Of a stretch of 64,000 bases of DNA, positions 8,409 to 57,114 are shown piece by piece. Both the position numbers and the translations under genes were made by a program. The stretch covers positions 1,544,310 through 1,608,309 of the forward strand of contig OY970210.1 in NCBI GenBank assembly GCA_963713895.1, in the 5' to 3' direction. Below the pieces are notes generated by a model, which made no database searches, was not told the origin of the DNA, and saw only the letters and a program-made list of their open reading frames with translations. This DNA comes from an uncultured Solirubrobacterales bacterium. GTDB lineage: Bacteria > Actinomycetota > Thermoleophilia > Solirubrobacterales > Solirubrobacteraceae. Within the stretch, counting starts at the first letter, position 1. Every line of letters starts with the position of its first letter.

Positions 8409-9974
8409 TCAGCCGGCGCGCGGCGCGAGCGTCACGAGCATCGCGCTCGCCGGCTCGAGCACGACGGTGAACTTGCCGTCGGCCTCAGCGAGCGCTGTGG
8501 ACCGGGGTGTCGGCAGGGTGCCGTTCTGGCGCAGCGCGACTCCGCCGAGAGCGGTCCCCTGTAGGGCGCCGGCGGAGGGCGCGCTCAGCCGCAGCGCCGT
8601 GGCGCGTCGATAGGAGGAGCCGACCTCGAGCGTCACCGTGGCGGGCCGGGGTGCGCCCGCGGCGTGAGGAGAGGCTGTGCCGGCGCTCGCGGTTTCCATG
8701 TCGTCGATCACGACATGCATCGCACGGTCGGGAGCGCGGAGCGCGAACGCGGCGATGTTGCGCGAAGTATGCAGCGACAGCGGCATGAAGGCGTCGCCCT
8801 CGAGCGAGTGCAGCAACAGCAGCGCGTAGTACTCGGGCCGCGCGGTCAGCTGGCCGTCGGCGAGCGTGCACAGCGGCGAGTACCAGGGCGAGAGCAGCGT
8901 GCCGCCCGCTTGGCAGGACCCCAGTCCGCTGGTGAAGTTGACCGCGGCCACCCCTTCGCGTGCTGCGAGCAGCGCCGCGTCCAGCGCCCACAGCGCCGCG
9001 GCGAAGGTGTCGCTCGTGCCCGGCTGGCCCCCGCAGGCCACCGAGCCGAGCTCGTCGATGTGCAGCGGCAGCGCGTGGCTTGCGGCCGTGGCCGCCAGTT
9101 CCCCGATCCGCTTGGTCTCGCTCTGCTGCACCGCGCCGCTCAGCAGTTGCGCGATCGAGGGGCCGTGCGGCAGCAGGCGCTCGGAGCGGCAGCGGTCGAG
9201 CGGGTAGAGATGGGCGCTCAAAGCCGCGACGCTCGAGCCCTCCGTGGCCGCGTATGCCTGCAGCCAGTTCCCGGTCGCGCTCTCGGGGCCGACGAGCGGC
9301 GCCGACACCCCCGCAGCGGCCAGCGCGCCGCGCATCTTCGCGAGTTCGCCCTGGTAAGCGGAGAAGCCCCAGCCGCTCGGGCGCAGCGGGTGGCTCCCAA
9401 GCACCGACCTGAACGGTTCGGCGGGCGGCATCGTGTAGAGGTCGGGCTCGTTGCCGATCGCGAGCCCGGCCAGTGACGGGCCGAGAATCGAGCTGGCCGC
9501 GCCGGCCTCTTCGGCGAGCCTTGCCGGATCGGGATGTCCGAGGTCGAGCCCGAGAATCAGCCGCCAACCGGTGGCGCTCATCAGGCTCGCCAGATGGTGC
9601 AGGTCTGCCGGCGAAACCGTCGTGATCGCCCACGGCGCCGGCGTGGCGGGCGCCGGCAGCCACTGCGTGTGATCGACCGAGTCGCCCGATACGCGCAGCA
9701 CCCCCTTGCCCAGACCCGACAGCAGGTTCGCGAGCTCGGGCGAAGCCGATTCGATCGCCGGCAGGTGCAATGCCGGCGTCTCGAGTGACAGCCCGAGAAA
9801 GTCCGCTGGGATGGTCGGTCCGAGCTGCGAGCCGATGCTCACGCTCAGCGGCGGTTCGGGCGAGCCGACGGACTGCGCCGAGCGTGCCTCGGCGCCCGCG
9901 CAGAGATGGGCCAGCATGCTGGCGACAGTGACGATCAGGACCCCGAGGCGGCGTGAGCGCACAGAGCGGCACAT
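8409..9974 (-). CDS. Secreted glycoside hydrolase family 79-like (beta-glucuronidase/heparanase clan A)
   Basis: Signal peptide; FLGLSLE, LRVSGD, IGNEPDLY acid/base motif, IDELGS putative nucleophile. Confidence 0.8.
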   Translation of the reverse strand: MCRSVRSRRLGVLIVTVASMLAHLCAGAEARSAQSVGSPEPPLSVSIGSQLGPTIPADFLGLSLETPALHLPAIESASPELANLLSGLGKGVLRVSGDSVDHTQWLPAPATPAPWAITTVSPADLHHLASLMSATGWRLILGLDLGHPDPARLAEEAGAASSILGPSLAGLAIGNEPDLYTMPPAEPFRSVLGSHPLRPSGWGFSAYQGELAKMRGALAAAGVSAPLVGPESATGNWLQAYAATEGSSVAALSAHLYPLDRCRSERLLPHGPSIAQLLSGAVQQSETKRIGELAATAASHALPLHIDELGSVACGGQPGTSDTFAAALWALDAALLAAREGVAAVNFTSGLGSCQAGGTLLSPWYSPLCTLADGQLTARPEYYALLLLHSLEGDAFMPLSLHTSRNIAAFALRAPDRAMHVVIDDMETASAGTASPHAAGAPRPATVTLEVGSSYRRATALRLSAPSAGALQGTALGGVALRQNGTLPTPRSTALAEADGKFTVVLEPASAMLVTLAPRAG

Positions 9975-29896: not shown

Positions 29897-30502
29897 ATGA
29901 TCGGCTTGCTGCGGGGCGAGGTGGCCGTCAGGCGCCAAGACCACGTCGTGATCCTTTGCGGCGGCGTCGGATACCGGGCGGGCGTGTCGGCCCAGACGAT
30001 GCGCCATGTCCCCGCGGTGGGATCGGAGACGACGCTTCACACCCACCTGATCGTGCGCGACGACTCGCTCGCGCTGTACGGCTTTCACTCCGAGCAGGAG
30101 AAGGAGCTGTTCTTGATGCTCCTGTCGGTCCAGGCGGTCGGCCCCAAGGTTGCGCTGGCGGTGCTGTCGGGTGGGTCCGCACGCGAGCTGCTCGGCGCGA
30201 TCGCGGCGGGGGACGCGGCGCGCTTTCAGGCTGCGCCGGGAATCGGCAAGCGCACGGCACAGCGGATCATCGTCGAGCTGCGCGAGAAGGTGCTGGGCGC
30301 CGCCACGGGGGCTGACGTCGAGGAGATTCTCGCCGCGCGCACAGGGCCCGGCTCGCCCGGCGGGGCGCGGACGCTCGCGCGCGATGGCCTGCTGGAGCTC
30401 GGCTACAGCGCCGCGGAGGTCGAGCAGCTGCTCGGAGAGGCACGGGGCGACAGCGCCGAGGAGCTGATCGCCGAGGCGCTGCGCAGCGCGCGGGCGGGAT
30501 GA
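29897..30502 (+). CDS. ruvA: Holliday junction branch migration protein
   Basis: GGVGY, LYGF, VGPKVAL, PGIGKRTAQRI, LLELGY. Confidence 0.96.
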   Translation: MIGLLRGEVAVRRQDHVVILCGGVGYRAGVSAQTMRHVPAVGSETTLHTHLIVRDDSLALYGFHSEQEKELFLMLLSVQAVGPKVALAVLSGGSARELLGAIAAGDAARFQAAPGIGKRTAQRIIVELREKVLGAATGADVEEILAARTGPGSPGGARTLARDGLLELGYSAAEVEQLLGEARGDSAEELIAEALRSARAG

Positions 30503-30520
30503 GCGGGCCAATGACCAACG

Positions 30521-30608
30521 CAGCGTCTCGGCATATGGGCATTGGAGCGTCTTGGTATATGGGCACCGCGGCGCGTCGCCATACGGACACTGGAGCGTGT
30601 TGGCATGT
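30521..30608. repeat. 24-bp tandem repeat, about 3.6 copies, between ruvA and ruvB
   Basis: Units start at 30521, 30545, 30569 and 30593, e.g. CAGCGTCTCGGCATATGGGCATTG / GAGCGTCTTGGTATATGGGCACCG. Confidence 0.75.
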
Positions 30609-31642
30609 CTGACGTGGTCGAGCGGATCCAGACGCCCTATCTCGTGCCCGAGGATGAGCTCGACCGCTCGTTGCGGCCGCGACGCCTGGCGGACTTCGTG
30701 GGTCAGCAGACCCTGCGTGAGCAGCTCGCGGTCGCGATCGAGGCGGCGGGCGCGCGCGGCGAGGCCCTCGATCATGTGCTGCTGGCGGGACCGCCCGGGC
30801 TGGGCAAGACCTCGCTGGCGCAGATCCTCGCGGCCGAGCTGCAGGTGCCGTTCGTGCAGACCGCGGGCCCGGCGCTCGAGCGCAAGGGCGACATCGCCGC
30901 GTTCTTGACCGCGCTCGAGCCGCGCAGCGTGTTCTTCGTGGACGAGATCCACCGCCTGCCGAGGACGCTCGAGGAGACCTTCTATCCGGCCATGGAGGAC
31001 CGTAGGCTGCCGATCACCGTCGGCCAGGGCGCAGGCGCGCGCGTGGTCACGCTCGAGCTGCCCCAGTTCACGCTGATCGGAGCGACGACGCGCACCGGCC
31101 TGCTCACGACGCCGCTGCGCGACCGTTTCGGGATACAGGCCCGGCTCGAGCCCTATGCGGCCGAGGAGCTCGCGGCGATCGTCAGGCGCTCGGCGGGAAT
31201 CCTCGAGATCGAGCTGGAGGATGACGGCGCGCTCGCGATCGCCGGTCGCAGCCGCGGCACGCCGCGCGTCGCCAACAGGCTGCTCAAGCGCGTACGCGAC
31301 TTCGCCGAGGTACGCATGCAGGGGGTCGTGACCGCCGCCGCCGCGCAGGCGGCGCTCGAGCTGCTCGAGGTCGACGAGCTGGGGCTCGACCGGCTCGACC
31401 GCGAGATCCTGCGGGCGATCTGCGTGAAGTTCGCGGGCGGGCCGGTCGGCCTGTCGACGCTGGCCGTGGCGGTAGGGGAGGAGCAGGACACGATCGAGGA
31501 CGTGTACGAGCCCTATCTGCTGATGCAGGGTCTGATCAAGCGCACCCCCCGCGGGCGCGCGGCCACGGCGGCGGCGTTCACGCACCTCGGGATGGAGCCG
31601 CCCGCCGGCGTGGCGGGCAGCGCCGAGCAGGCTCTGTTCTAG
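30605..31642 (+). CDS. ruvB: Holliday junction DNA helicase
   Basis: LRPRRLADFVGQ, GPPGLGKT, DEIHR, GATTR, RGTPR, EDVYEPYL. Confidence 0.98.
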   Translation: MSDVVERIQTPYLVPEDELDRSLRPRRLADFVGQQTLREQLAVAIEAAGARGEALDHVLLAGPPGLGKTSLAQILAAELQVPFVQTAGPALERKGDIAAFLTALEPRSVFFVDEIHRLPRTLEETFYPAMEDRRLPITVGQGAGARVVTLELPQFTLIGATTRTGLLTTPLRDRFGIQARLEPYAAEELAAIVRRSAGILEIELEDDGALAIAGRSRGTPRVANRLLKRVRDFAEVRMQGVVTAAAAQAALELLEVDELGLDRLDREILRAICVKFAGGPVGLSTLAVAVGEEQDTIEDVYEPYLLMQGLIKRTPRGRAATAAAFTHLGMEPPAGVAGSAEQALF

Positions 31643-31684
31643 CCGCCTGAGCTTCGATTAAGGCGGCTTCCCTAGTCTGTGAGC

Positions 31685-32134
31685 ATGTCTCATCCGTTCA
31701 TCTGCCCCAACTGCGGGCATCGGACGAGCGAGGTCGACCGCAATATCGGCTTCACACGCCAGCCCAAGGGCTGCGAGAAGTGTGGGTTCGCGTTCCTGTT
31801 CGAGCTGCTCGACGACTACTACCCCGCTCCCGACGCCGCTTTCTTCGTCTGCGACAGCGAGGCTCGTATCATCGGCTGCGGGCGCAACTCCTTTGCGTTC
31901 ACGGGTCTGGAGGAGGAAGAGGTGATCGGTCAACGCGTCGAGCAGGTTTTGGGGCTGAGCTTCGCCAACGGCGACGACCCCGTGAAGACCGTGCTCGAGT
32001 GGGGCGTACGCGCGCTCGAGGTACCGGTCGAGGTGGCCGGCGAGCGCGACGTCGCGGCCAGCGCCAAGGCCGACATGTTCCCGGCCTATGACGACGACGG
32101 CGGGCTGTTGCTCGTGCTGACCCCGGAGAAGTAG
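31685..32134 (+). CDS. Zn-ribbon + PAS-like stand-alone protein
   Basis: CPNC..CEKC followed by a PAS-like fold (FFVCD..IIG..FTG..EVIG). Confidence 0.75.
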   Translation: MSHPFICPNCGHRTSEVDRNIGFTRQPKGCEKCGFAFLFELLDDYYPAPDAAFFVCDSEARIIGCGRNSFAFTGLEEEEVIGQRVEQVLGLSFANGDDPVKTVLEWGVRALEVPVEVAGERDVAASAKADMFPAYDDDGGLLLVLTPEK

Positions 32135-32176
32135 TCTCCGTAGGACGATGACGCCCGTGACCACCGCTTGCGCACC

Positions 32177-35100
32177 ATGAGCGACCGCCGTCGCAACATC
32201 TTCACTCTGCTGCTCGTCCTCGGTCTCGTGATCGCGTCGCTGGCTGTGATCCTGCTGATGCCGACGAAGCTGGGGCTCGAACTCAAGGGCGGCGTGCAGC
32301 TGGTCTATCTGGCCAAGCCGACGGCACAGGCGAAAGTCGACAACGAATCGCTGACCCAGGCGATCACCATCATGGACAAGCGCGTCGATCAGATCGGCGT
32401 GACCCAGCCCGAAATCCAGCGCAGCGGTGGGCAGGAAATCGACGTGGCGCTGCCCGATGTGAGCAACGCGGCACGCGCCGAAGCCGAGGTCGGCAAGACC
32501 GCCCAGCTGTACTTCTACGACTGGGAGCCGAACGTGATCGGCCCCAACGGCAAGCCGGCGGGGGCGAGTGAACCGACCGCGACCGGCGGACCCAACGCCG
32601 CTTCCTCGTCCTACGGGCTGCCCGAGTACGAGGCGGTCCTGCGGGCTGCCAAACGGCCGCCGATCATCCGCAAGACCGACACCACGCTGGCGCCGGGCTG
32701 CACGGCCAAGCAGGAAGGCGGGTGCGTGTACGGCAGCTGGTATCTGCTCGACACCAAGCACGAAAAGGTCCTGCGCGGGCCCGAGGAAACCGAGGCGAAC
32801 CTGTACGCCGACGGCTACAAACCGCCGGTCGGGTCAAAGACGAAGGTCGTGCACGTGAATCCCGGCACCGTGCTGGTGCAGTCGCGGCCGGTCGAAACGG
32901 CCAGCGGCAAGGTCACCCAGCAGAGCCCGAACAGCTGGTACGTGCTCAACGACGAACCGGTGCTCGAAGGCAAGGACATCACGAATCCCGTCCAGGGATT
33001 CGACGAAAACGGCGACGGCCAGCCCAACGTCAGCTTCGGCTTCACCTCGTACGGCAAGGGCGTGTTCGAACGCGTCACCAAGGAAATCGCCCACCGCGGA
33101 CAGGAAGCGCAGCTGCCGGGGGTGCGCAAGGAATCTGCCGAGCAGCACTTCGCCGTGGTGCTGGACGAACAGGTGATCACGGCGCCGTCGATCGACTACA
33201 CGCAATATCCGGAAGGGATCGACTCGACGACCGGCTCGCAGATCTCGGGCGGGTTCACGATCACCTCGGCGCAGAATCTCGCGAACGAGCTGCAGTCGGG
33301 CGCGCTGCCGATCAAGCTGGAACTGATCTCCAACTCGCAGGTCTCGGCGACGCTCGGCAAAACGGCGCTCAAACAGGGTCTGCTCGCGATGCTTGCCGGC
33401 TTCCTGGTGGTGTGCATTTTCCTGCTCACCTTCTACCGCGTGCTCGGCGCGATCGCCGTCGGCGGGCTGGTGATCTGCGGGATCTATCTGTTCGCGCTGG
33501 TCAAGCTGATCCCGGTCACGCTGACGCTGCCGGGGATCGCCGGCGTGGTCCTGACGATTGGCGTGGCGGCGGACGCGAACATCGTGATCTACGAGCGCGT
33601 CAAGGAGGAGATCAGAGGCGGCAGATCGATCGTATCCGGGATCGCGACCGGGTATTCGCGCGGATTCGCGGCGATCGTGGACGCGAACGTGGTCACGTTC
33701 ATGACCGCGTTCATCCTGTTCGCGCTCGCCACCGCGGAAGTCAAGGGCTTCGCGTTCATGCTCGGGATCGGCGTGCTCGTGTCGCTGTTCACGGCGGTGC
33801 TCGCGACCAGGGCGGCGCTCGGCTTGATGGGGCGCTCGCGGCTCGTCAGCCATCCGAGTGCGCTCGGCGCATCCAAGCCCAAGCGCCAGTGGACGATGGA
33901 CTTCATGGGCCGCTCGAAGTGGTTCTTCTCGCTGTCGGGCACGATCCTGTTGATCGGCGCGCTGGCGATCGGCGGCAAGGGGATCAACTTCGGTATCGAC
34001 TTCAAGTCCGGGACACGCATCCAGACCGCGTTCACGAGACCCGTCTCGCAGGCCGAAGTGAGCTCGGCGCTCACCGCGAAGGGCTATCCGAACGCGCAGG
34101 TGCAGAAGTATTCGAGCAAGGGCGTCGGCGGCAGCGGCTATCAGATCTCGACGAAGAAACTCCAGCCCGCGGAGGTCAGCAAGGTCAAGGCCGCGCTCGA
34201 TGAAAAGTTCGGCAACGGACCCCTGCACCCGGGGACCAAGAACTTCTCGAGCACCTCGATCGGCCCGACCTTCGGCAAGACGATCGCGGACGCCGCGATC
34301 ATCGCGATCATCGCCTCGCTGCTGGTGATCTCGATATATATCGCGCTGCGCTTCGAGTGGAAGTACGCCGTGCCGGTGCTGATCGCGCTGATGCACGACC
34401 TGCTGATCACGGCCGGGATCTACTCGCTGACCGGCCGCGAAGTGACCTCGGCCACCGTCGCCGCGCTGCTCACGATCCTCGGGTACTCGCTGTACGACAC
34501 GATTATCGTGTTCGACAGGGTGCGCGAGAACGTCCCGCGAATGCCCAGGGCCGCGTTCTCGCAGATCGTCAACCGGTCGATGTCCGAGGTGCTGACGCGG
34601 TCGCTGGCGACGAGCTTCTGCACGCTGCTGCCGGTGCTCGCGCTGTTCCTGTTCGGGGGCAGCACGCTCAAGGACTTCGCGTTCGCGTTGATGGTCGGGA
34701 TCGCCTCCGGGGCATATTCCTCGATCTTCATCGCCTCGCCGGTGTTGACCCACTGGAAGGAGCGCGAGCCCTCCTATCGCAACCGCCGCGCGCGCATCAT
34801 CCGCGAAGTGGGCGCCGTGCCGGCCTACGCGACGGCCGTCGGTGGCGCGCCGATCGATGTCGAGCCCGAGCGCAAGCCCAGGCGCACGCGCCGGGGCAGC
34901 CTGATCGCCCCGGAGGAGCCGGGCCAGCAGATCTCCAGAGACGAGTTCCAGGAACTGGTGCAGGACCTCGACGTCAACGGCGACGAGCAGCCCGCCAAGA
35001 GCGGCGGTGGCGCGGCCGTGACGAAGCGCCGTGCCAGCAGCCGCTCCGACGGCGACGGCACCGCGACCGTCGCGCCCGCCCCCGAGCGCGACCCCGCCGC

Positions 35101-35206
35101 CGACCTGACGCCGGAGGATCTGGTGCTCAAGGAGCCGGCGAAGCCGCGCGAAAAGCGCCGGCGGGCGGGCGGGCGTCGAAATAAACGGCACGGGAGGTCG
35201 CGCTGA
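32177..35206 (+). CDS. secDF: Fused protein translocase SecD-SecF
   Basis: LGLELKGG, SATLG, IGVAADANIVIYERVKEE, GIDFKSG, YSLYDTIIVFDRVRE. Confidence 0.97.
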   Translation: MSDRRRNIFTLLLVLGLVIASLAVILLMPTKLGLELKGGVQLVYLAKPTAQAKVDNESLTQAITIMDKRVDQIGVTQPEIQRSGGQEIDVALPDVSNAARAEAEVGKTAQLYFYDWEPNVIGPNGKPAGASEPTATGGPNAASSSYGLPEYEAVLRAAKRPPIIRKTDTTLAPGCTAKQEGGCVYGSWYLLDTKHEKVLRGPEETEANLYADGYKPPVGSKTKVVHVNPGTVLVQSRPVETASGKVTQQSPNSWYVLNDEPVLEGKDITNPVQGFDENGDGQPNVSFGFTSYGKGVFERVTKEIAHRGQEAQLPGVRKESAEQHFAVVLDEQVITAPSIDYTQYPEGIDSTTGSQISGGFTITSAQNLANELQSGALPIKLELISNSQVSATLGKTALKQGLLAMLAGFLVVCIFLLTFYRVLGAIAVGGLVICGIYLFALVKLIPVTLTLPGIAGVVLTIGVAADANIVIYERVKEEIRGGRSIVSGIATGYSRGFAAIVDANVVTFMTAFILFALATAEVKGFAFMLGIGVLVSLFTAVLATRAALGLMGRSRLVSHPSALGASKPKRQWTMDFMGRSKWFFSLSGTILLIGALAIGGKGINFGIDFKSGTRIQTAFTRPVSQAEVSSALTAKGYPNAQVQKYSSKGVGGSGYQISTKKLQPAEVSKVKAALDEKFGNGPLHPGTKNFSSTSIGPTFGKTIADAAIIAIIASLLVISIYIALRFEWKYAVPVLIALMHDLLITAGIYSLTGREVTSATVAALLTILGYSLYDTIIVFDRVRENVPRMPRAAFSQIVNRSMSEVLTRSLATSFCTLLPVLALFLFGGSTLKDFAFALMVGIASGAYSSIFIASPVLTHWKEREPSYRNRRARIIREVGAVPAYATAVGGAPIDVEPERKPRRTRRGSLIAPEEPGQQISRDEFQELVQDLDVNGDEQPAKSGGGAAVTKRRASSRSDGDGTATVAPAPERDPAADLTPEDLVLKEPAKPREKRRRAGGRRNKRHGRSR

Positions 35207-35433
35207 TGAAGCGGCGCGAGCCCGTCTCGGAGAGTCACGGGAGGTCGCGCTGATGAAGCGGCGCGAGCCCGTCTCGGAGAGTCACGGGAGGTCGCGCTGA
35301 TGAAGCGGCGCGAGCCCGTCTCGGAGAGTCGCGGGAGGTCGCGCTGATGAAGCGGCGCGAGCCCGTCTCGGAGAGTCGCGGGAGGTCGCGCTGATGAAGC
35401 GGCGCGAGGCCGTCTCGGAGAGTCGCGGGAGGT
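35189..35433 (+). repeat. 47-bp tandem repeat, 5 copies plus a partial copy
   Basis: Unit C(A/G)CGGGAGGTCGCGCTGATGAAGCGGCGCGAGCCCGTCTCGGAGAGT at 35189, 35236, 35283, 35330, 35377; partial at 35424; no spacers. Confidence 0.97.
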
Positions 35434-35604
35434 TGTGTTGAGAACCCACGCCAGAATATCTGCCGGGGTCGAGGCTGCCGTTCCGCGGCGCCATACGCCA
35501 CCCGCGATGCTCGACGTGCCACCAGCACGCCTGTGCTCGCGTGCGGCGTCTGCCATCCACGGCCCGACCCCCTCAACCCACCATCTATTCCGGCGAGGGT
35601 TCTG

Positions 35605-35895
35605 ATGGCGATGCTCGGGTGGGTCATGATGGGGCTCGCGATCTGGCATTTCACGATCTGGCTGCCCGACCGCTTCTGGGGCGGCATCGTCGGCGCGTTC
35701 GTCGGCGCGCTGCTCGGGGCGGTGATCTTCGGGGTGATCATCGCAAGCGCGAACCTCGGCGTCGCCGTGCCCGGCGAAAGGAAGACCGACATCGCGGTCA
35801 TTCTGTACGCCGTCCCCGGCGCGCTGATTGGGATCGGGCTCGTCTATCTCGAGGGCATGCGGCGCGAAGGCCGCGTCGCGCACGAGACGACCTGA
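35605..35895 (+). CDS. Small membrane protein (about 3 TM)
   Basis: MAMLGWVMMGLAIWHFTIWLPDRFWGGIVGA; hydrophobic throughout. Confidence 0.8.
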   Translation: MAMLGWVMMGLAIWHFTIWLPDRFWGGIVGAFVGALLGAVIFGVIIASANLGVAVPGERKTDIAVILYAVPGALIGIGLVYLEGMRREGRVAHETT

Positions 35896-35990
35896 GCCGG
35901 CCTGCGCCTGGGCGTCCAGGCGCGCACGAGGCTCGAGCCGTTCTCGGTGGTGGTCGCGATTCCGTCCACGGTCAACCCTAGGGTTGGCCG

Positions 35991-37793
35991 GTGGTCGAGC
36001 CGCGCTTTCAGATAACGCCGTGCCCGCCTGAGCAGGTTGCGCGCCTGCAGCGCGAGCTTGGCGTCAGCGACCCGCTCGCGCAGGTGCTCGTGCGGCGCGA
36101 TCTAGCCGAGCCCGCGCGCGCACGTGCGTTCCTGGCGGCCGACGAGCTACATCCCCACACGGCGTTCGCGGGCATCGAAGCGGCAGTGCGCACGATCGCC
36201 CGGCATCTCGACGCGCGCAGCACGATCACGGTCCACGGCGACTACGACGTCGACGGCGTGTGCTCGACCGCGGTGCTCGTGCGTGCGCTGCGCGAGCTCG
36301 GCGCCGAGGTCAACTGGTTCCTGCCCGATCGTGGCGCCGACGGCTACGGGCTCAGCGCACACACGGTGCGCAGGCTGGCCGCGCGTGGCACCAAGCTGCT
36401 GATAACCGCCGACTGCGGCATCTCGGCCGCGCGGGAGATCGCGCTTGCGCGGGAGCTCGGCATCGACGCGGTCGTCTCCGACCATCATGCGCTTCCCGCC
36501 GACGGCCTGCTGCCGGACGCGCCGATCGTGCACCCGGTCGTCTGCGCCTATCCCTGTGCCGAGCTGTGCGCCACCGCGGTCGCGCACAAGCTGGCGCTCG
36601 CGCTGTGGGAGCGGCACGGACGCGACTGCGCCGAGCTGGCGCGCGATCTCGACCTGGTGGCGCTCGCGACGATCGCCGACGTCGTGCCGCTGCGCGGCGA
36701 GAACCGCGCGCTCGTGCGGCGCGGCCTGCCCGCGCTCGCCGGCACCGCCAGGCCGGGACTGCGGGCGTTGATGGTCCTCGCCGGGATCGATCCGGCGAGG
36801 ATCAACGAGCGCGCGGTGGCGTTCGGGCTCGCGCCCCGCCTGAACGCGGCCGGGCGCATGCGCCGCGCCGACACCGGGCTCGAGTTGATCCTGACGGGCG
36901 ACCACGCCCGCGCCCGCGAGCTCGCGCGCGAGCTCGATCGTGTCAACCACGAGCGTCGCGAGGTCGAGCGAGGCATCCGGCACGAGGCCGAGGCACAGAT
37001 CGACGCGCTCGGCGACGTCGCGCAACGGCGTGCGCTGGTGCTCGCAGGGGAGGGCTGGCACGCGGGCGTGATCGGGATCGTCGCCTCGCGCTTGGCCGAG
37101 CGCCACCATCGTCCGGTCGTGCTGATCGCGCTCGACGGCGAGCGCGGGCGCGGCTCGGGGCGCAGCGGCTGCGAGGCCTTCGATCTGCTGGCGGCGTTGA
37201 CTGCCTGCGGCGAGCATCTGCATCGCTACGGCGGACATCGCGCGGCCGCGGGAGTGGAGATCGAGCGCGATCGGGTGGCCGCGTTTGCCGAGGCCCTGCA
37301 GGCGCACGCGTGCGGCGTGCTGGCCGAGCATGACACCGCTCCCGTCGAGCGCGTCGATGCGATCCTCGGCGGCGGTGAGCTGGGAATGGCGCTGGCCCAG
37401 GAGCTGCAGAGGATCGGCCCCTTCGGCCACGGCAATCCGCCGGTCTCGCTGATGCTCGACGCCGCGGCCTTTACCGACGTCAGAACGATGGGCGAAGGCC
37501 GGCATGTGCGCTTCACTGTTCGGGCGCACGGGGGCACGGCTCGCGCCGTGGCGTTCAACAACGGCGGGCGTCTGCCGGTCGCGGCCGACGAGCCGGCCCA
37601 GGCCACGTTCGCGCTCGAGGTGCACGAGTGGAAGGGGGTCAGCGAGCCTCGGTTGGTCCTGCGCCACGCGCGACCCGCAGCGGTGCCGGCGTCCGTCCCG
37701 GGCACGGCCGCCGATCTATGCGCGCGCGTGGCGAGCAGGCGCCGCGACGCCGGCGCAGGGCGCTGCCGCCAGGAGCTTGCGCTGTTTCCCTGA
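35991..37793 (+). CDS. recJ: ssDNA-specific exonuclease
   Basis: HGDYDVDG, TADCG, SDHH, LATIADVVPL, PRLNAAGR, GGHRAAAG. Confidence 0.96.
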   Translation: MVEPRFQITPCPPEQVARLQRELGVSDPLAQVLVRRDLAEPARARAFLAADELHPHTAFAGIEAAVRTIARHLDARSTITVHGDYDVDGVCSTAVLVRALRELGAEVNWFLPDRGADGYGLSAHTVRRLAARGTKLLITADCGISAAREIALARELGIDAVVSDHHALPADGLLPDAPIVHPVVCAYPCAELCATAVAHKLALALWERHGRDCAELARDLDLVALATIADVVPLRGENRALVRRGLPALAGTARPGLRALMVLAGIDPARINERAVAFGLAPRLNAAGRMRRADTGLELILTGDHARARELARELDRVNHERREVERGIRHEAEAQIDALGDVAQRRALVLAGEGWHAGVIGIVASRLAERHHRPVVLIALDGERGRGSGRSGCEAFDLLAALTACGEHLHRYGGHRAAAGVEIERDRVAAFAEALQAHACGVLAEHDTAPVERVDAILGGGELGMALAQELQRIGPFGHGNPPVSLMLDAAAFTDVRTMGEGRHVRFTVRAHGGTARAVAFNNGGRLPVAADEPAQATFALEVHEWKGVSEPRLVLRHARPAAVPASVPGTAADLCARVASRRRDAGAGRCRQELALFP

Positions 37794-37878
37794 GCCTCGG
37801 CCAGGCGCCGAGCGCCTCGCCGAGCGCCCTGCTGGCTGGGCTCTTCAATCCGGGATGGCAGTCCCCTAACCTTTGACC

Positions 37879-40314
37879 ATGGGGTTCGCAGACGAGATCA
37901 AGGGCCGGCAGGCCGTCGAGGCCCCCGAGCGCAACGCGCCCGCGCAGGCCGGCATGTCGTCATCCGGTGAGCCCTCGACGGCGCTCGTGCCCGTCGTACC
38001 GCCGCTCGACCCCACGCCGCCGACCGGGCCGAGCGCCGCGCAGCTCGATCAGGGCACCGCGCGGCTTGATCTCAACGAGCTCGAGCGCCGGCTGCTGAAG
38101 GATCTGTTCGCGATCGTCTCGGAGCACGCCGAGGACTCGGCGGTCGAGGTCGATCGCCGGCGCGTGCAGGATGCTTTTGTGTTCGCCTGCGAGCACCACG
38201 CCGACCAGCGGCGCAAATCGGGCGAGGACTTCATCGTGCATCCGGTCGGTGTGGCGAGGATCTGCGCGGGCATGCGCCTCGACACCGAGACGCTGTGCGC
38301 CGCGCTGCTGCATGACACCGTCGAGGACACGTCGGCGTCGATCGAGGAGGTCGCCGAGCGCTTCGGCGAGGAGATCGCCCAGATAGTCGACGGCGTCACG
38401 AAGCTGACCGGGATCACCTTCCAGTCGCGCGATGAGGCGCAGGCCGAGAACTACCGCAAGATGATGGTCGCGATGGCCACGGACGCCCGGGTCATCCTGA
38501 TCAAGCTCGCCGACCGGCTGCACAACATGCGCACGATCGATGCGATGTCCAAGCAGAAGCAGATGGAGAAGGCGCGCGAGACGCTCGAGATCTACGCGCC
38601 GCTGGCCCACCGGCTGGGCATCCACGCGATCAAGTGGGAGCTCGAGGATCTCGCCTTCGCGACGCTGCACCCGCGCAAGTACCAGGAGATCAAGGCGCTG
38701 GTGGCGCAGCAGCGCGAGGAGCGCGAGCGCTACGTCGGCGAGGCGGGCGAGTACCTCGGACGCGAGCTGGGCGAGCTCGGGATCACGGCGCAGATCGCCG
38801 GGCGCGCCAAGCACTTCTACTCGATCTACTCGAAGATGACCAAGAAGGGCCGCGAGTTCAACGAGATCTACGACCTGACCGCGATGCGGGTGATCGTCGA
38901 GACCGTGAAGGACTGCTACGGGGCCGTCGGCGTGATCCACTCGCTGTGGAAGCCGCTGCCGGGCCGCTTCAAGGACTTCATCGCGATGCCCAAGTTCAAC
39001 ATGTACCAGTCGCTGCACACGACCGTGATCGGCCCCGAGGGCCGGCCGCTCGAGATCCAGATCCGCACGCGCGAGATGCACGAGATGGCCGAGTTCGGCG
39101 TCGCGGCGCACTGGACGTACAAGCGCCGTCCCGGCGCCGAGCGGGCCGGCCGCGACGGCGACGGCGGGAGCTCGGGAGAGAACGCCAAGCTGCAGTGGCT
39201 GCGCTCGATGCTCGACTGGCAGAAGGAGCTGTCCGACCCTCAGGAGTTCATGGACACGTTTCGCGCCGACCTGTTCGAGGACGAGGTCTACGTGTTCACC
39301 CCGAAGGGTGAAGTGAAGTCGCTGGCGGCGGGCGCGACGCCGCTGGACTTCGCCTACGAGGTGCATACGGAGATCGGCCACCGCTGCGTGGGCGCGCGCG
39401 TGAACGGCAAGATCGTGCCGCTGCACTGCGAGCTGCACAGCGGCGACATCGTCGAGATCCTCACGTCCAAGCGCGAGCGGGGACCCTCGCGCGACTGGCT
39501 GGCGATGGTCAAGACGACGCGCGCGCGCAACAAGATCAAGCAGTGGTTCAAGGCCGAGTCGCGCCAGGACACCGAGCACACCGGGCGCGATCTGCTGCAG
39601 GAACACCTGCGCAGGCAGGGCCTGCCGGCGCAGAAGATCACCGGCTCGCCGCTGCTGGCGGACGTGATTCGCGAAGTCGGCTACCGCAAGGCCGACGACT
39701 TCTACATTGCCCTGGGCGCCGCCAAGGTCTCGCCGAAGCTGGTCGTCAACAAGGTGATGCAGCGCCTGAAGCAGGGCGAGGCCGCCGACGAGCACGACAG
39801 CGCGGAGCTGTTCCGCGTCGGCCGCCCGCGCCGGCACCCGACCAAGTCATCCGAGCAATACGGCATCAAAGTGCAGGGCGTCGAGGACGTCATGCTGCGC
39901 CTGGCCAAGTGCTGCCGGCCGGTTCCGGGCGACGGCATCGTCGGCTACATCTCGCTCGGCCGGGGGATCACGATTCACCGCCAGGATTGCCCGAACGTCG
40001 CGAGCCTGCGCCGCAACTCCGAGCGCTTCACGAGCGTCTCCTGGGATGGCGACCTGAGCAGCGCGTTCGTCGTCGAGATCCAGATCGACGCGTGGGACCG
40101 CCACCGCCTGCTCGAGGACCTCTCGCGCGTGTTCTCGGAGTCCGGCACGAACATCCTCGAAGCGCGCTGCCTGTCGAGCCCGCCGATGGTCAAGAACCGG
40201 TTCGTCGTCGAGGTCGCAGACACGCACACGCTCAAAGCGGCGATCACGCGGCTGCGCAACGTCGAGTCGGTGTTCGACGCCTACCGCGTAACCCCGGGCG
40301 GCTCGGCCGCATAG
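37879..40314 (+). CDS. relA: Bifunctional (p)ppGpp synthetase/hydrolase (HD, SYN, TGS, ACT)
   Basis: LLHDTVED, KLADRLHNMRT, GRFKD, YQSLHTT, TPLDFAY, LAKCCRP. Confidence 0.97.
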   Translation: MGFADEIKGRQAVEAPERNAPAQAGMSSSGEPSTALVPVVPPLDPTPPTGPSAAQLDQGTARLDLNELERRLLKDLFAIVSEHAEDSAVEVDRRRVQDAFVFACEHHADQRRKSGEDFIVHPVGVARICAGMRLDTETLCAALLHDTVEDTSASIEEVAERFGEEIAQIVDGVTKLTGITFQSRDEAQAENYRKMMVAMATDARVILIKLADRLHNMRTIDAMSKQKQMEKARETLEIYAPLAHRLGIHAIKWELEDLAFATLHPRKYQEIKALVAQQREERERYVGEAGEYLGRELGELGITAQIAGRAKHFYSIYSKMTKKGREFNEIYDLTAMRVIVETVKDCYGAVGVIHSLWKPLPGRFKDFIAMPKFNMYQSLHTTVIGPEGRPLEIQIRTREMHEMAEFGVAAHWTYKRRPGAERAGRDGDGGSSGENAKLQWLRSMLDWQKELSDPQEFMDTFRADLFEDEVYVFTPKGEVKSLAAGATPLDFAYEVHTEIGHRCVGARVNGKIVPLHCELHSGDIVEILTSKRERGPSRDWLAMVKTTRARNKIKQWFKAESRQDTEHTGRDLLQEHLRRQGLPAQKITGSPLLADVIREVGYRKADDFYIALGAAKVSPKLVVNKVMQRLKQGEAADEHDSAELFRVGRPRRHPTKSSEQYGIKVQGVEDVMLRLAKCCRPVPGDGIVGYISLGRGITIHRQDCPNVASLRRNSERFTSVSWDGDLSSAFVVEIQIDAWDRHRLLEDLSRVFSESGTNILEARCLSSPPMVKNRFVVEVADTHTLKAAITRLRNVESVFDAYRVTPGGSAA

Positions 40315-55415: not shown

Positions 55416-56060
55416 ATGGACAACGAGAAGACGGTCCTCGGCGAGGAGGAGCTGCAGCGGGCGCTCACGCGGATCGCGCACGAGATCGTCGAGCGCAATC
55501 CCGACCGGCCGGCCCCGGCGCTTGTCGGCATCCATCGTCGAGGCGCGTTCCTGGCGGGCCGGCTACAGCGACTGCTACAGGAGCTGCTCGACGTCGAGGT
55601 GCCGCTCGGCGACCTCGACATCGGCTTCTACCGCGACGACGTGGCACGTCGCGGCGACGCACCGATCCTGCACGCGTCGCACATCGACTTCGACGTCGCA
55701 GACCGCACGGTCGTGATCGTCAACGACGTCCTCTACACGGGGCGCACCGCGCGCGCCGCGATCGACGCGCTGTTCGACTACGGGCGCCCCGCACGCGTGC
55801 AGCTGGCTGTGCTCGCCGACCGCGGCCATCGCGAGCTGCCGATCAGGCCCGACTATGTCGGCAAGAACCTGCCGACCTCACGCGCCGAGCACGTGCACGT
55901 GCGCCTGTGCGAGCTGGACGGCGTGGACGAAGTTGCCATTGCCCTGGGCACGCATGGCGGCGCTGGATCGGCGTCCTCGGTCGCTCGCGTGCCAAGCACG
56001 CCACGCCGGGCGGGCGGGCTCAGCACTAGACCAGCTTGCCCTGCGTACCCAGGGTCGTGA
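55416..56060 (+). CDS. pyrR: Pyrimidine operon regulator / UPRTase
   Basis: RALTRIAHEI.E, GI.RRG, LDIGFYRDD, VLYTGRT, DRGHRELPIRPDYVGKN. Confidence 0.96.
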   Translation: MDNEKTVLGEEELQRALTRIAHEIVERNPDRPAPALVGIHRRGAFLAGRLQRLLQELLDVEVPLGDLDIGFYRDDVARRGDAPILHASHIDFDVADRTVVIVNDVLYTGRTARAAIDALFDYGRPARVQLAVLADRGHRELPIRPDYVGKNLPTSRAEHVHVRLCELDGVDEVAIALGTHGGAGSASSVARVPSTPRRAGGLSTRPACPAYPGS

Positions 56061-56076
56061 CATTGGTGCTCAGGGC

Positions 56077-57114
56077 ATGAACCACCTGCTGACGATGGAA
56101 GACCTCGACCGCGCTGCGATCGAGCGGATCGTGGGCCAGGCGGAGCGCTTCGCGGAGGTGTCCGATCGTGAGATCAAGAAGGTGCCCGCGCTGCGCGGGC
56201 GGATGGTTCTGAACCTCTTCTACGAGGCCTCGACGCGCACGCGCAGCTCCTTCGAGCTGGCCGCCAAGCGCCTGTCCGCGGACGTCGTGAACTTCGCCGC
56301 CAGCGGCTCGAGCGTCGAGAAGGGGGAGTCGTTGAAGGACACGGTGCTGACGCTCAGCGCGCACAAGCCCGACGCGATCGTGCTGCGCACGCCGTGGGCG
56401 GGCGCAGCGGAGCTCGTGTCCCGATGGTGCAGCGCCGCGATCGTCAACGCGGGCGACGGCAAGCACGAGCATCCCACCCAGGCGCTGCTCGATGTGTACA
56501 CGCTGCGCCAGCGTCTGGGCGAGATCGACGACGCGTCGATCTGGATCGTCGGCGACGTGGCGCATTCGCGCGTGGCGCGCTCGAACATCATCGCCTTCCA
56601 GCGCATGGGCGCGCGCGTGACGGTCGCCGGCCCGCCGACGCTGATCCCGCGTGGAATCGAGGCGCTCGGCTGCGATGTGCGGTACACGCTCGACGAGCTC
56701 GGATCGGCCGATGTGGTGTATGCGCTGCGGATGCAGCGCGAGCGCATGAACGAGGCCTGGGTGCCCTCGCTGCGCGAGTACGCAACGTGGTATCAGATCA
56801 ACGGTGATCGCCTCGAGCCGCACCAGGTGCTGATGCATCCCGGCCCGGTGAATCGCGGCGTCGAGCTCTCCGGCGAGGCGGTCGACTCGCCGCAGGCCGT
56901 GATCGCCGCCCAGGTCGAGGCCGGGGTCGTGGTGCGCATGGCCGTGCTGTACGAGCTGCTGGCCGGTGCGGGGACGCGCGCGGACCGCGTGTCTACCGGT
57001 CCGGCGGAGCGCGTGTCTACCGGTCCGGCGGAGCGAGTGTCTCCCGGTTCAGCGGACACGCGTGCCGAGCGCCCACCGGTCGAGGATCCCCTGCCCGAGC
57101 CTCAGTTGACGTGA
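56077..57114 (+). CDS. pyrB: Aspartate carbamoyltransferase catalytic subunit
   Basis: FYEASTRT, KGESL.DT, NAGDG.HEHPTQALLD, MHPGPVNRG. Confidence 0.97.
   Translation: MNHLLTMEDLDRAAIERIVGQAERFAEVSDREIKKVPALRGRMVLNLFYEASTRTRSSFELAAKRLSADVVNFAASGSSVEKGESLKDTVLTLSAHKPDAIVLRTPWAGAAELVSRWCSAAIVNAGDGKHEHPTQALLDVYTLRQRLGEIDDASIWIVGDVAHSRVARSNIIAFQRMGARVTVAGPPTLIPRGIEALGCDVRYTLDELGSADVVYALRMQRERMNEAWVPSLREYATWYQINGDRLEPHQVLMHPGPVNRGVELSGEAVDSPQAVIAAQVEAGVVVRMAVLYELLAGAGTRADRVSTGPAERVSTGPAERVSPGSADTRAERPPVEDPLPEPQLT
56980..57056 (+). repeat. 24-bp in-frame tandem repeat in the pyrB tail (RVSTGPAE x3)
   Basis: Units GCGGA(C/G)CGCGTGTCTACCGGTCCG at 56980, 57004, 57028. Confidence 0.9.

What the first reader, a model, noticed from the sequence alone, without database searches (positions are those of the whole stretch)
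35189..35441. 47-bp tandem array in which each unit is a hairpin and a translationally coupled 15-codon mini-ORF
Seen: the secDF stop overlaps an ATG (TGATG, 35204-35208). Because the unit is 47 bp, each copy reads ATG..TGA with a 1-nt overlap into the next. This gives five chained ORFs at 35206, 35253, 35300, 35347 and 35394: MKRREPVSESHGRSR x2, MKRREPVSESRGRSR x2 and MKRREAVSESRGRLC. Each has GGGAGG 8 nt upstream, and each shifts frame. Each unit can also fold (GCGCGA/TCGCGC, CCCGT/ACGGG, CTC-GGA-GAG), burying the next SD. The peptides repeat the basic SecDF tail (HGRSR). Inference: either a ribosome relay or mRNA stability element that opens only when secDF is translated, or a neutral VNTR born from duplicating the secDF stop region.
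Basis: partly seen in the sequence, partly recalled or inferred. Interest (0 to 1): 0.7.

Follow-up and report, generated by a model that had tools for sequence, protein, structure and literature searches.

The report
Strain-variable repeat born from a gene junction
The 47-bp array is real, but it is a young tandem repeat whose copy number varies between strains; it copied the spot where the secDF stop codon overlaps the next gene's start, so its ribosome-binding sites, mini-ORFs and SecDF-like peptide tails are inherited by-products, as in mycobacterial MIRU-VNTR loci.

Summary
Five near-identical 47-bp units plus a partial sixth lie at 35189-35441. Each carries GGGAGG, an 8-nt spacer and TGATG, giving five chained 15-codon ORFs and a stable hairpin.

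Comparison with relatives (Solirubrobacteraceae) explains the array. In relatives whose secDF DNA is about 82-90% identical, the secDF stop directly overlaps the start of a conserved 96-98-aa membrane-protein gene. The GGGAGG inside the SecDF tail is that gene's ribosome-binding site. Two closer relatives (96% and 99.2% identical) have exactly one 47-bp module there, with one mini-ORF coupled at both ends. The window has 5 copies, and a 99.9%-identical contig has 6. Short-read soil metagenomes independently contain the repeat, plus 0- and 1-copy alleles.

The array is therefore a single-locus VNTR built from a duplicated translational-coupling junction. The chain of ORFs follows automatically from a 3n+2 period.

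A 161-bp MITE-like element (35442-35602) has also inserted at the last TGA. An ORF through it still ends in TGATG on the 96-aa gene.

The closest known analogue is the MIRU-VNTR at senX3-regX3. The architecture is the same, but this is not that family. A ribosome relay is plausible but untested, and a selected function is unlikely. Interest is low to moderate.

The parts
32177..35206 (+). secDF (fused SecD/SecF, 1009 aa). The last 6 codons, CAC GGG AGG TCG CGC TGA (HGRSR*), form the first 18 nt of repeat unit 1.
   Evidence: Translation. 7274 homologues carry SecD/SecF Pfam domains, and the best named hits are Solirubrobacteraceae.
35192..35197 (+). GGGAGG Shine-Dalgarno inside the SecDF tail, 8 nt before the overlapping ATG. 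In relatives it serves the 96-aa gene.
   Evidence: GGGAGG is conserved in L007 and L008, and L005 has GGCAGG, 8 nt before the start of the 96-98-aa gene.
35204..35208 (+). TGATG stop/start overlap. This is the ancestral coupling junction, now the head of the array.
   Evidence: The same TGATG (TAGTG in L008) joins secDF directly to the 96-98-aa gene in L005-L008.
35189..35441 (+). 47-bp tandem array. Units start at 35189, 35236 and 35283 (CAC type, identical), 35330 (CGC type) and 35377 (CGC type with GCC). A partial sixth junction copy, CGCGGGAGGTTGTGTTGA, lies at 35424-35441. Each unit is a 20-nt junction copy (CAC/CGC GGGAGG TCGCGC TGATG) plus a 27-nt filler.
35206..35253 (+). Mini-ORF 1 (MKRREPVSESHGRSR). 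Further mini-ORFs lie at 35253-35300, 35300-35347, 35347-35394 and 35394-35441, and each stop overlaps the next start.
35191..35224 (+). Unit hairpin, repeated every 47 nt. An 8-bp stem UCGCGCUG/CGGCGCGA and an outer stem CGGG/CCCG enclose a loop AUGAAG that holds the start codon.
   Evidence: RNA fold -19.4 kcal/mol, z -3.0. DNA fold -10.4 kcal/mol. The ancestral junctions in L005 and L007 have no such structure, z about 0.
35442..35602 (.). 161-bp MITE-like imperfect palindrome inserted at the last TGA of the array. Terminal inverted repeats are GAACCCACGCC and GGCGAGGGTTC. It is flanked by TGA at 35439-35441 and at 35603-35605.
   Evidence: It is 68% self-reverse-complementary over 167 nt, E 7e-14, and folds at -78.7 kcal/mol, z -3.8. 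It is absent from L017 and L004 at this site. A 90% copy lies between recJ and relA in L004, where the window has an empty site. Further copies are in L020 and L021. In soil metagenomes its depth is many times that of the flanks, and the flanks differ between copies.
35438..35605 (+). 55-codon ORF bridging the MITE. Its TTG start overlaps the last mini-ORF stop (TTGA), and its TGA overlaps the ATG of the 96-aa gene (TGATG).
   Evidence: The same frame is open in the L004 copy.
35605..35895 (+). Conserved 96-aa small membrane-protein gene with no family assignment. It is the original partner of the secDF stop/start overlap.
   Evidence: Translation. There is no Pfam or NCBIfam hit. Orthologues directly overlap secDF in L005-L008.
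35991..37793 (+). recJ, the next gene in the conserved ruvCAB - 149-aa gene - secDF - 96-aa gene - recJ - relA cluster.
   Evidence: Pfam DHH/DHHA1/RecJ_OB on the orthologues.

Best explanation
The array is a young, single-locus minisatellite (VNTR). Its unit is a copy of the translational-coupling junction between secDF and the downstream 96-aa membrane-protein gene (SD GGGAGG, 8 nt, TGATG) plus a 27-nt filler.

Shown:
- The ancestral state is a direct secDF-stop/start overlap.
- One 47-bp module was inserted in the lineage leading to this species and some relatives.
- Within this species the module then expanded from 1 to 5-6 copies.

Inferred: the expansion arose by replication slippage or unequal recombination between the junction copies, probably helped by the unit's hairpin.

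The period is 47 = 3n+2 and every unit carries TGATG. Each copy therefore automatically forms a 15-codon ORF whose stop overlaps the next start. The SD, the frame shift per unit and the HGRSR-like peptide tail are all inherited from the junction.

Inferred, not shown:
- On the operon mRNA, ribosomes that terminate at the secDF UGA can reinitiate at each overlapping AUG and melt the hairpins as they go.
- This hand-over makes the insertion tolerable, because the 96-aa gene still receives ribosomes. That gene also keeps an SD of its own.
- Copy number is then most likely neutral or mildly attenuating, not a selected device.
For: - Copy-number series, 0 units: L005/L006 (secDF DNA 90% identical to the window), L007 (84%) and L008 (82%).
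- Copy-number series, 1 unit: L004 (96% identical) and L017 (99.2% over 8.5 kb).
- Copy-number series, 5 units in the window and 6 in L016, which differs by 6 mismatches in 6.2 kb.
- Soil run X5 holds contigs with the 0-unit joint (35202 to 35602) and the 1-unit joint (35249 to 35602). Runs X6, X8 and X10 hold many 0-unit junctions.
- The internal junction copies are either identical to the first (CAC...TCGCGC) or hybrids of the first and last (CGC...TCGCGC). This is what slippage between junction copies would produce.
- The last junction copy no longer codes for SecDF and has decayed by C-to-T changes, while GGGAGG and its spacing are kept: TCGTGC in L017, TTGTGC in L004, TTGTGT in the window.
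- The unit occurs nowhere else in the window. A 22-nt core gave only chance single matches in 185,579 species-representative genomes and in JGI metagenome contigs. Its unitig depth in X1 is about twice the flank depth, so there is no sign of extra genomic copies.
- The hairpin exists only where the filler exists.
- A metatranscriptome contig (X27) from a relative spans the direct secDF/96-aa junction, which is consistent with co-transcription.
- Precedent 1: MIRUs carry ORFs coupled to the flanking genes (review PMC12548453, citing Supply 1997; PMC3184786).
- Precedent 2: the rnc-fpg1 spacer is a VNTR in the M. tuberculosis complex but only 1-6 bp in several other mycobacteria (PMC2734929).
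Against: - The origin of the 27-nt filler is unresolved. It matches the first 27 nt of the 96-aa gene at 9-13 of 27 positions, P 0.04-0.35 depending on the variant, and the upstream sequence at chance level.
- The whole genome of the source organism was not available, so dispersal of the unit elsewhere in it is not strictly excluded.
- No expression data cover the array, so neither translation of the mini-ORFs nor neutrality is demonstrated.
- The chain of stop/start overlaps stays unbroken across both the array and a later MITE insertion. My rough estimate is a few percent by chance. This could hint at selection for continuity.
- The difference between 5 and 6 copies rests on two long-read-style assemblies. 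Short-read unitigs confirm the repeat but cannot count copies exactly.
Confidence: 0.75

Rival explanations
1. Selected ribosome relay or tuner. The chained mini-ORFs are kept because the 96-aa gene (and perhaps recJ) depends on ribosomes handed on from secDF. Copy number would set the SecDF to partner ratio, like a contingency locus.
For: The chain of seven consecutive stop/start overlaps from secDF to the 96-aa gene is unbroken in the window, and eight in L016. The single mini-ORF has stayed open and coupled in L004 and L017 despite 8 differences in 48 nt between them. After the MITE insertion, a C-to-T change created a TTG that overlaps the last TGA, and the element-spanning frame ends in TGATG. 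Overlapping gene pairs are commonly translationally coupled (abstract of PMC6728339; PMC12548453).
Against: The chain is automatic for any 3n+2 unit that contains TGATG. The 96-aa gene has an SD-like sequence of its own (GAGGG 5 nt upstream, from the MITE end), so it need not depend on a relay. The expansion is very recent, occurring within less than 1% divergence, and most relatives have no unit. Differences between copies and between strains are largely non-synonymous. No expression data exist.
Confidence: 0.12
2. RNA structural element. The five GC-rich hairpins would act like intercistronic REP sequences or I-shaped terminators. They would protect the secDF mRNA 3' end from exonucleases or attenuate read-through into the 96-aa gene and recJ.
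For: Each unit folds stably (-19.4 kcal/mol, z -3.0). The whole array folds at -167 kcal/mol, z -2.1. The structure is new with the filler and absent from ancestral junctions.
Against: There is no U-tract after the hairpins. Only one weak terminator-like hit was found, at the last unit. Rfam has no match. The ancestral state lacks any structure, and the same recency and variability arguments apply. Translating ribosomes would unfold the hairpins.
Confidence: 0.07
3. The unit is a dispersed mobile element of the MIRU type that happens to have amplified here.
For: The architecture matches the published description of MIRUs: 40-100 bp, inside operons, with ORF ends overlapping the neighbouring genes (PMC3184786, PMC12548453).
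Against: There is no second locus in the 64-kb window or in about 90 kb of related loci. There were no true hits in the GTDB representatives or in JGI metagenome contigs. Twenty of the 47 nt are a copy of the local junction.
Confidence: 0.03
4. The 15-residue peptides are functional products.
For: Strong SD, good spacing and ATG starts.
Against: The last five residues are dictated by the copied SecDF tail. Copies differ by H/R, P/A and SR/LC, and L004 and L017 differ again (K/E, S/P, S/T). The peptides are absent from most relatives.
Confidence: 0.02
5. Assembly artefact.
For: Tandem repeats are error-prone in long-read assemblies, and the 5 versus 6 copies could be such an error.
Against: Two independent assemblies and short-read unitigs from three soil runs contain unit-to-unit and unit-to-flank junctions with 0-1 mismatch.
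Confidence: 0.01

Closest known systems
MIRU-VNTR loci of Mycobacterium, archetype the senX3-regX3 intergenic region (Supply et al. 1997, as described in PMC12548453 and PMC3184786)
   Same: Both are tandem units of 40-100 bp lying between co-oriented genes of an operon in a high-GC actinobacterium. In both, each unit carries a short ORF whose ends overlap the neighbouring ORFs, so translational coupling can be preserved. Copy number varies between strains.
   Different: MIRUs are a dispersed family of about 40-50 loci per genome and are thought to insert as mobile units with 4-bp direct repeats. The present unit is seen at one locus only, and 20 of its 47 nt are a copy of the local junction. 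The host is a member of the Thermoleophilia (Solirubrobacteraceae). Sequence similarity to MIRU consensus sequences was not tested.
VNTR3239/ETR-F between rnc and fpg1 in the M. tuberculosis complex (PMC2734929)
   Same: An intercistronic spacer of 1-6 bp in several non-complex mycobacteria (up to 54 bp in M. leprae) has become a strain-variable tandem-repeat region of several hundred bp in one lineage.
   Different: That repeat starts 40 bp after the rnc stop and has a complex composition of 16-18 bp and longer repeats. A chain of coupled mini-ORFs is not described there.
Translational coupling by termination-reinitiation at TGATG/ATGA overlaps (PMC6728339; review PMC12548453)
   Same: The ancestral secDF/96-aa gene junction, and each unit, is a TGATG overlap with an SD inside the upstream ORF. 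This is the arrangement known to support reinitiation.
   Different: Here the junction has been multiplied, giving up to seven successive hops. Coupling has not been measured.
REP/BIME intercistronic palindromes of enterobacteria (PMC3184786)
   Same: GC-rich hairpins lie between cistrons and could affect mRNA stability.
   Different: REPs are dispersed in hundreds of copies, are about 35 bp long and carry no SD or ORF. This unit is at a single locus and is ORF-forming.

Membership tests
Bacterial intergenic VNTR / minisatellite | Head-to-tail tandem copies of a unit of about 10-100 bp | tested here: met
   47 bp x 5.2 copies, 98% matches; 5 matches against 0 expected.
Bacterial intergenic VNTR / minisatellite | Copy number differs between closely related strains | tested here: met
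   1 copy in L017 (99.2% identical), 5 in the window and 6 in L016 (99.9% identical). X5 holds 0- and 1-copy alleles.
MIRU (mycobacterial interspersed repetitive units) | Unit of 40-100 bp between co-oriented genes of an operon | tested here: met
   The 47-bp unit lies between secDF and the 96-aa gene, in the conserved same-strand cluster ruvCAB-secDF-recJ-relA.
MIRU (mycobacterial interspersed repetitive units) | Unit contains a small ORF whose start and stop overlap those of the adjacent ORFs | tested here: met
   All five mini-ORFs begin and end in TGATG overlaps.
MIRU (mycobacterial interspersed repetitive units) | Dispersed at tens of loci in the genome | tested here: not met
   There is no other copy in the 64-kb window or in the fetched related loci. 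Only chance hits appeared in the GTDB representatives and the JGI contigs. Unitig depth is about twice the flank depth. Caveat: the complete source genome was not available.
MIRU (mycobacterial interspersed repetitive units) | Sequence similarity to the MIRU consensus, and a mycobacterial host | not tested
By SecDF homologues the host is Solirubrobacteraceae, not Mycobacterium.
Termination-reinitiation coupled gene pair | Stop and start codons overlap (ATGA/TGATG), with an SD inside the upstream ORF | tested here: met
   TGATG with GGGAGG 8 nt upstream at every junction. The same holds in the 0-unit relatives.
Termination-reinitiation coupled gene pair | Downstream translation depends on upstream translation | not testable with these tools
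   This needs reporter or Ribo-seq experiments. No RNA data cover the array.
Intrinsic (Rho-independent) terminator | GC-rich hairpin followed by a U-tract | tested here: not met
   The hairpins are followed by CGUCUCGGAGAGU. Only one weak consensus hit was found, at the last unit.
Known structured RNA family (Rfam) | Match to a covariance model | tested here: not met
   0 matches at E <= 1 in 30000-40000.
MITE (for the 161-bp insert at 35442-35602, not for the array) | Small non-coding element with terminal inverted repeats, a target-site duplication, multiple dispersed copies, and both empty and filled sites | tested here: met
   The terminal repeats are GAACCCNCGCC, and TGA flanks both ends. 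The site is empty in L017 and L004. The recJ-relA site is filled in L004 and empty in the window. Further copies are in L020 and L021. Depth is high and flanks vary in soil runs. The length of the target-site duplication (3 or 4 bp) is not settled.

The most novel reading that the evidence does not exclude
Stop/start-overlap junctions in this lineage may act as landing and seeding sites for extra DNA (a local minisatellite and a MITE family). That DNA would survive only if it carries a through-reading 'relay ORF' that keeps ribosome hand-over intact. The unbroken chain of seven overlapping ORFs from secDF to its conserved 96-aa partner would then be maintained by selection. Repeat copy number would tune the stoichiometry of SecDF and a so far unrecognised small membrane subunit.
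Probability: 0.1. Interest if true: 0.6.

Novelty: new member of a known kind. Interest (0 to 1): 0.3.

Why it matters
This is a clean natural series (0, 1, 5 and 6 copies) showing how a bacterial minisatellite can be born from a translational-coupling junction. It also shows why such repeats look 'designed', with an SD, a start and a stop in every unit. It extends MIRU-like architecture beyond mycobacteria to the Thermoleophilia, and it warns against reading function into repeated mini-ORFs. In practice the locus could serve as a strain-typing marker for this uncultured soil lineage. It also offers ready-made natural constructs for measuring how many reinitiation hops a bacterial ribosome can make. 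As a by-product, it flags a conserved, unannotated 96-aa membrane protein whose gene is stop/start-coupled to secDF across the family. That makes it a candidate SecDF partner.

Tried and rejected
- Rfam scan of 30000-40000 at E <= 1: nothing.
- The 22-nt hairpin core in GTDB species representatives gave 3 single chance matches in unrelated phyla, so the source genome is not in that collection.
- A degenerate 22-nt unit pattern in JGI metagenome contigs gave 7 hits. All were unrelated sequence without the SD/TGATG context.
- Origin of the 27-nt filler. Comparison with the 27 nt upstream gave 7-9 matches of 27, which is chance level. Comparison with the first 27 nt of the 96-aa gene gave 9-13 of 27, P 0.04-0.35. 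No donor was found anywhere in the window, where the best non-self match was 20 of 27. The result is inconclusive. A partial inverted copy of the junction is suggestive by eye but was not tested.
- Exact-sequence look-ups of the window's SecDF and RecJ: not on record.
- Nanopore runs for direct copy counting: none served.
- Metatranscriptomes hold only the 96-aa gene and MITE parts from relatives, and nothing on the array.
- The sigma-70 promoter scan found nothing, but it is not informative for this high-GC actinobacterium.
- Pfam and NCBIfam gave no family for the 96-aa protein.
- A protein search with the MITE-spanning 55-aa ORF found only 3 called proteins. This is too few and too ascertainment-biased to claim a conserved element-borne ORF.
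- The long minus-strand ORFs across the array (34825-35883 and 35235-35801) were rejected as genes. They are antisense to conserved secDF and the 96-aa gene in 70%-GC DNA, and they depend on the lineage-specific insert.
Full report
**1. What is there**

The window is high-GC DNA. At 32177-35206 it encodes a fused SecD/SecF protein of 1009 aa. Its closest named homologues are from Solirubrobacteraceae, in the Thermoleophilia.

Tandem Repeats Finder reports one outstanding repeat in the whole window: 35189-35433, period 47, 5.2 copies, 98% matches, score 462. The consensus unit matches five times with at most 2 mismatches. Shuffles expect 0, and there is no other match in the 64 kb.

- Units 1-3 are identical.
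- Unit 4 has CAC changed to CGC.
- Unit 5 has in addition CCC changed to GCC.
- A partial sixth copy, CGCGGGAGGTTGTGTTGA, closes the array at 35441.

**2.

The secDF TGA (35204-35206) overlaps an ATG as TGATG. A script that follows overlapping stops and starts finds five 15-codon ORFs at 35206, 35253, 35300, 35347 and 35394.

The unit core folds into a hairpin of -19.4 kcal/mol (z -3.0). It has an 8-bp stem UCGCGCUG/CGGCGCGA and an outer stem CGGG/CCCG. The AUG sits in the loop, and the first three G of the unit's own SD are paired. The whole array gives z -2.1. Rfam has no match, and the hairpins lack U-tracts.

**3. Relatives explain the anatomy**

Contigs encoding close SecDF homologues were fetched. 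All share the gene order ruvC-ruvA-ruvB, a 149-aa gene, secDF, a 96-98-aa gene, recJ, relA, all on one strand.

| Locus | DNA identity to window | State between secDF and the 96-aa gene |
|---|---|---|
| L005/L006 | 90% (secDF) | secDF stop directly overlaps the start of the small membrane-protein gene |
| L007 | 84% (secDF) | same direct overlap |
| L008 | 82% (secDF) | same direct overlap, TAGTG instead of TGATG |
| L004 | 96% (secDF) | one 47-bp module; mini-ORF MKRREAVPETRGRLC |
| L017 | 99.2% over 8.5 kb | one 47-bp module; mini-ORF MERREPVSESRGRSC |
| Window | - | five modules |
| L016 | 6 mismatches in 6.2 kb | six modules (one extra CAC-type unit) |

In the direct-overlap relatives the junction reads ...CAC GGG AGG TCN CGC TGATGGCG.... 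So GGGAGG, which codes for the Gly-Arg of the SecDF tail, is the Shine-Dalgarno of that small gene. The TGATG is a genuine gene-gene coupling junction.

In L004 and L017 the single mini-ORF is coupled by TGATG at both ends. The module is a second copy of the 20-nt junction plus a 27-nt filler.

Short-read soil metagenomes add independent support.

- X1, X2 and X4 contain cyclic 77-nt unitigs of the repeat, and contigs running from units 4-5 into the downstream sequence.
- X5 contains both a 0-unit joint (35202 to 35602) and a 1-unit joint (35249 to 35602) from more distant relatives.
- X6, X8 and X10 contain many direct junctions.

The array is therefore real, derived, recent and variable in copy number.

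**4. How the array grew (inference)**

The internal junction copies are either identical to the first (CAC...TCGCGC) or are hybrids. The hybrids carry the 5' CGC of the last copy and the 3' TCGCGC of the first. Slipped-strand mispairing or unequal exchange between the two junction copies of a 1-unit ancestor would produce exactly this pattern.

The last junction copy is freed from coding for SecDF. It has decayed by C-to-T changes while keeping GGGAGG and the spacing: TCGTGC in L017, TTGTGC in L004 and TTGTGT in the window.

The unit can also form a DNA hairpin (-10.4 kcal/mol), which would favour slippage.

The origin of the 27-nt filler could not be established. It resembles the first 27 nt of the 96-aa gene only weakly (9-13 of 27, P 0.04-0.35), and the upstream sequence not at all. 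The hairpin exists only where the filler exists, and ancestral junctions fold no better than shuffles.

**5. Why every unit looks 'designed'**

A unit that contains TGATG and has a length of 3n+2 automatically places the next TGA in frame with its ATG. Once one such module exists, any tandem amplification yields a chain of stop/start-overlapping ORFs. Each ORF has the copied SD and the copied HGRSR-type tail.

The prior chance that a random insertion at this junction has the right length class and no stop is roughly a quarter to a third. This is my estimate from the 1/3 length class and the low stop frequency in 70%-GC DNA. The chain itself is therefore not evidence of selection.

Differences between copies and strains are mostly non-synonymous: H/R, P/A, SR/LC, K/E, S/P and S/T. 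The unit is absent from most relatives. This argues against functional peptides.

**6. A second insertion**

Between the array and the 96-aa gene lies a 161-bp imperfect palindrome (35442-35602). It is 68% self-complementary, folds at -78.7 kcal/mol with z -3.8, and has terminal inverted repeats GAACCCNCGCC. TGA flanks it on both sides.

- It is absent at this site from L017 and L004.
- A 90% copy sits between recJ and relA in L004, where the window has an empty site.
- Further copies occur in L020 and L021.
- In soil metagenomes its depth is many times that of the flanks, and the flanks vary.

It is a MITE-like mobile element. A 55-codon frame crosses it. That frame starts at a TTG overlapping the last mini-ORF stop (TTGA) and ends in TGATG on the 96-aa gene, so the chain of overlaps from secDF to the 96-aa gene is unbroken.

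The same frame is the only fully open one in the L004 copy. In L020 and L021 an ORF through the element ends in a GTGA or ATGA overlap with the next gene. Those two copies were found because a gene had been called on them, so the sample is biased. I treat this as a lead, not a finding.

**7. Mechanism, with what is shown and what is inferred**

Shown: the junction origin, the 0/1/5/6 copy series, the hairpin, the unbroken ORF chain and the single-locus distribution in the data available.

Inferred from established knowledge of termination-reinitiation at TGATG/ATGA overlaps (PMC6728339, PMC12548453):

- Ribosomes finishing secDF can reinitiate at each unit's AUG and unfold the hairpins as they go.
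- They can so reach the 96-aa gene, with some loss at every hop.
- The 96-aa gene also has an SD-like GAGGG 5 nt upstream, supplied by the MITE end, so it can probably initiate independently.

A metatranscriptome contig from a relative spans the direct junction, which is consistent with co-transcription. No RNA data cover the array.

I judge a neutral or mildly attenuating VNTR the most likely reading (0.75). The rivals are a selected relay or tuner (0.12), an RNA-stability or attenuator element (0.07), and a dispersed mobile unit, functional peptides or an artefact (0.03 or less each).

**8. Comparison with what is known**

The architecture is that of mycobacterial MIRU-VNTR loci. These have 40-100-bp units inside operons, each with a small ORF whose ends overlap the neighbouring ORFs, and a copy number that varies between strains (Supply 1997, as summarised in PMC12548453 and PMC3184786).

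The rnc-fpg1 VNTR of the M. tuberculosis complex is a further precedent. Several other mycobacteria have only 1-6 bp at that position (PMC2734929).

Membership in the MIRU family itself is not supported.

- The unit is not dispersed in any data examined.
- Twenty of its 47 nt are a copy of the local junction.
- The host is not a mycobacterium.

It works like a MIRU-VNTR and is a new instance of the broader kind, an intercistronic bacterial minisatellite with coupled mini-ORFs.

**9. Verdict**

The relay remains a plausible but untested consequence rather than a purpose.

Novelty: a new member of a known kind. Interest: 0.3. The value lies in the unusually clean evolutionary series, in the extension of MIRU-like architecture to the Thermoleophilia, and in the natural constructs it offers for testing multi-hop reinitiation.

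Noticed in passing
window 35442-35602 (TGA at 35439-35441 and 35603-35605): A 161-bp MITE-like imperfect palindrome is inserted exactly at the last TGA of the array. The family is abundant in soil metagenomes. In several copies the right end is followed by TGA or TGATG and a gene start, and the left flank carries an SD. One frame through the element is open in both full copies examined. This suggests an element that lands on stop/start junctions with little polar effect.
   Followed up: partly
soil run X6, contig laid on window 35426-35552: A diverged relative has a SecDF tail (...CAACAAACGACA) joined directly to CGGGAGGTTGTGTTGA plus the MITE. The first 31 nt are identical to the window, but the rest of the element is about 15% diverged, and there is no 47-bp unit. 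This could be array collapse by recombination between the first and last junction copies, recurrent insertion, or exchange between lineages. It remains unexplained.
   Followed up: partly
L017 8845-8969 (the window equivalent, about 35869-35908, is single copy): Strain L017 (99.2% identical) has a separate 31-bp x 4 tandem array. It covers the stop codon of the 96-aa gene and the sequence just downstream. This is a second gene-end minisatellite in the same operon, so such duplications seem common in this lineage.
   Followed up: partly
window 35605-35895: A conserved 96-98-aa protein with predicted membrane helices and glycine-zipper-like motifs has no Pfam or NCBIfam family. In every 0-unit relative examined its start codon overlaps the secDF stop. 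It is a candidate unrecognised partner of SecDF.
   Followed up: partly
window 37866-37869 versus L004 9442-9609 and L005/L006 9207-9272: The recJ-relA spacer holds a full MITE copy in L004 and a 66-nt remnant in L005/L006. The window has a clean empty site there (ccccTAACcttt). The cause is either precise loss or allele replacement.
   Followed up: partly
window 56980-57064: A 24-bp x 3.5 tandem repeat (86% matches) lies in frame in the 3' end of ORF 55855-57114. The stop of that ORF overlaps the GTG of the next ORF (57111) as GTGA.
   Followed up: no
L017 8380-8500: The secDF gene of L017 is called 8 residues shorter (1001 aa, ending at a TAA at 8496-8498), apparently because of small indels in the GC-rich tail. 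This is either a long-read consensus error or a real frameshift. If real, it would uncouple secDF from the mini-ORF in that strain.
   Followed up: no
window 31685-32134: A conserved 149-aa protein with an N-terminal CxxC...CxxC zinc-ribbon-like motif and a weak PAS-like region lies immediately upstream of secDF in all relatives. No family reaches threshold.
   Followed up: no
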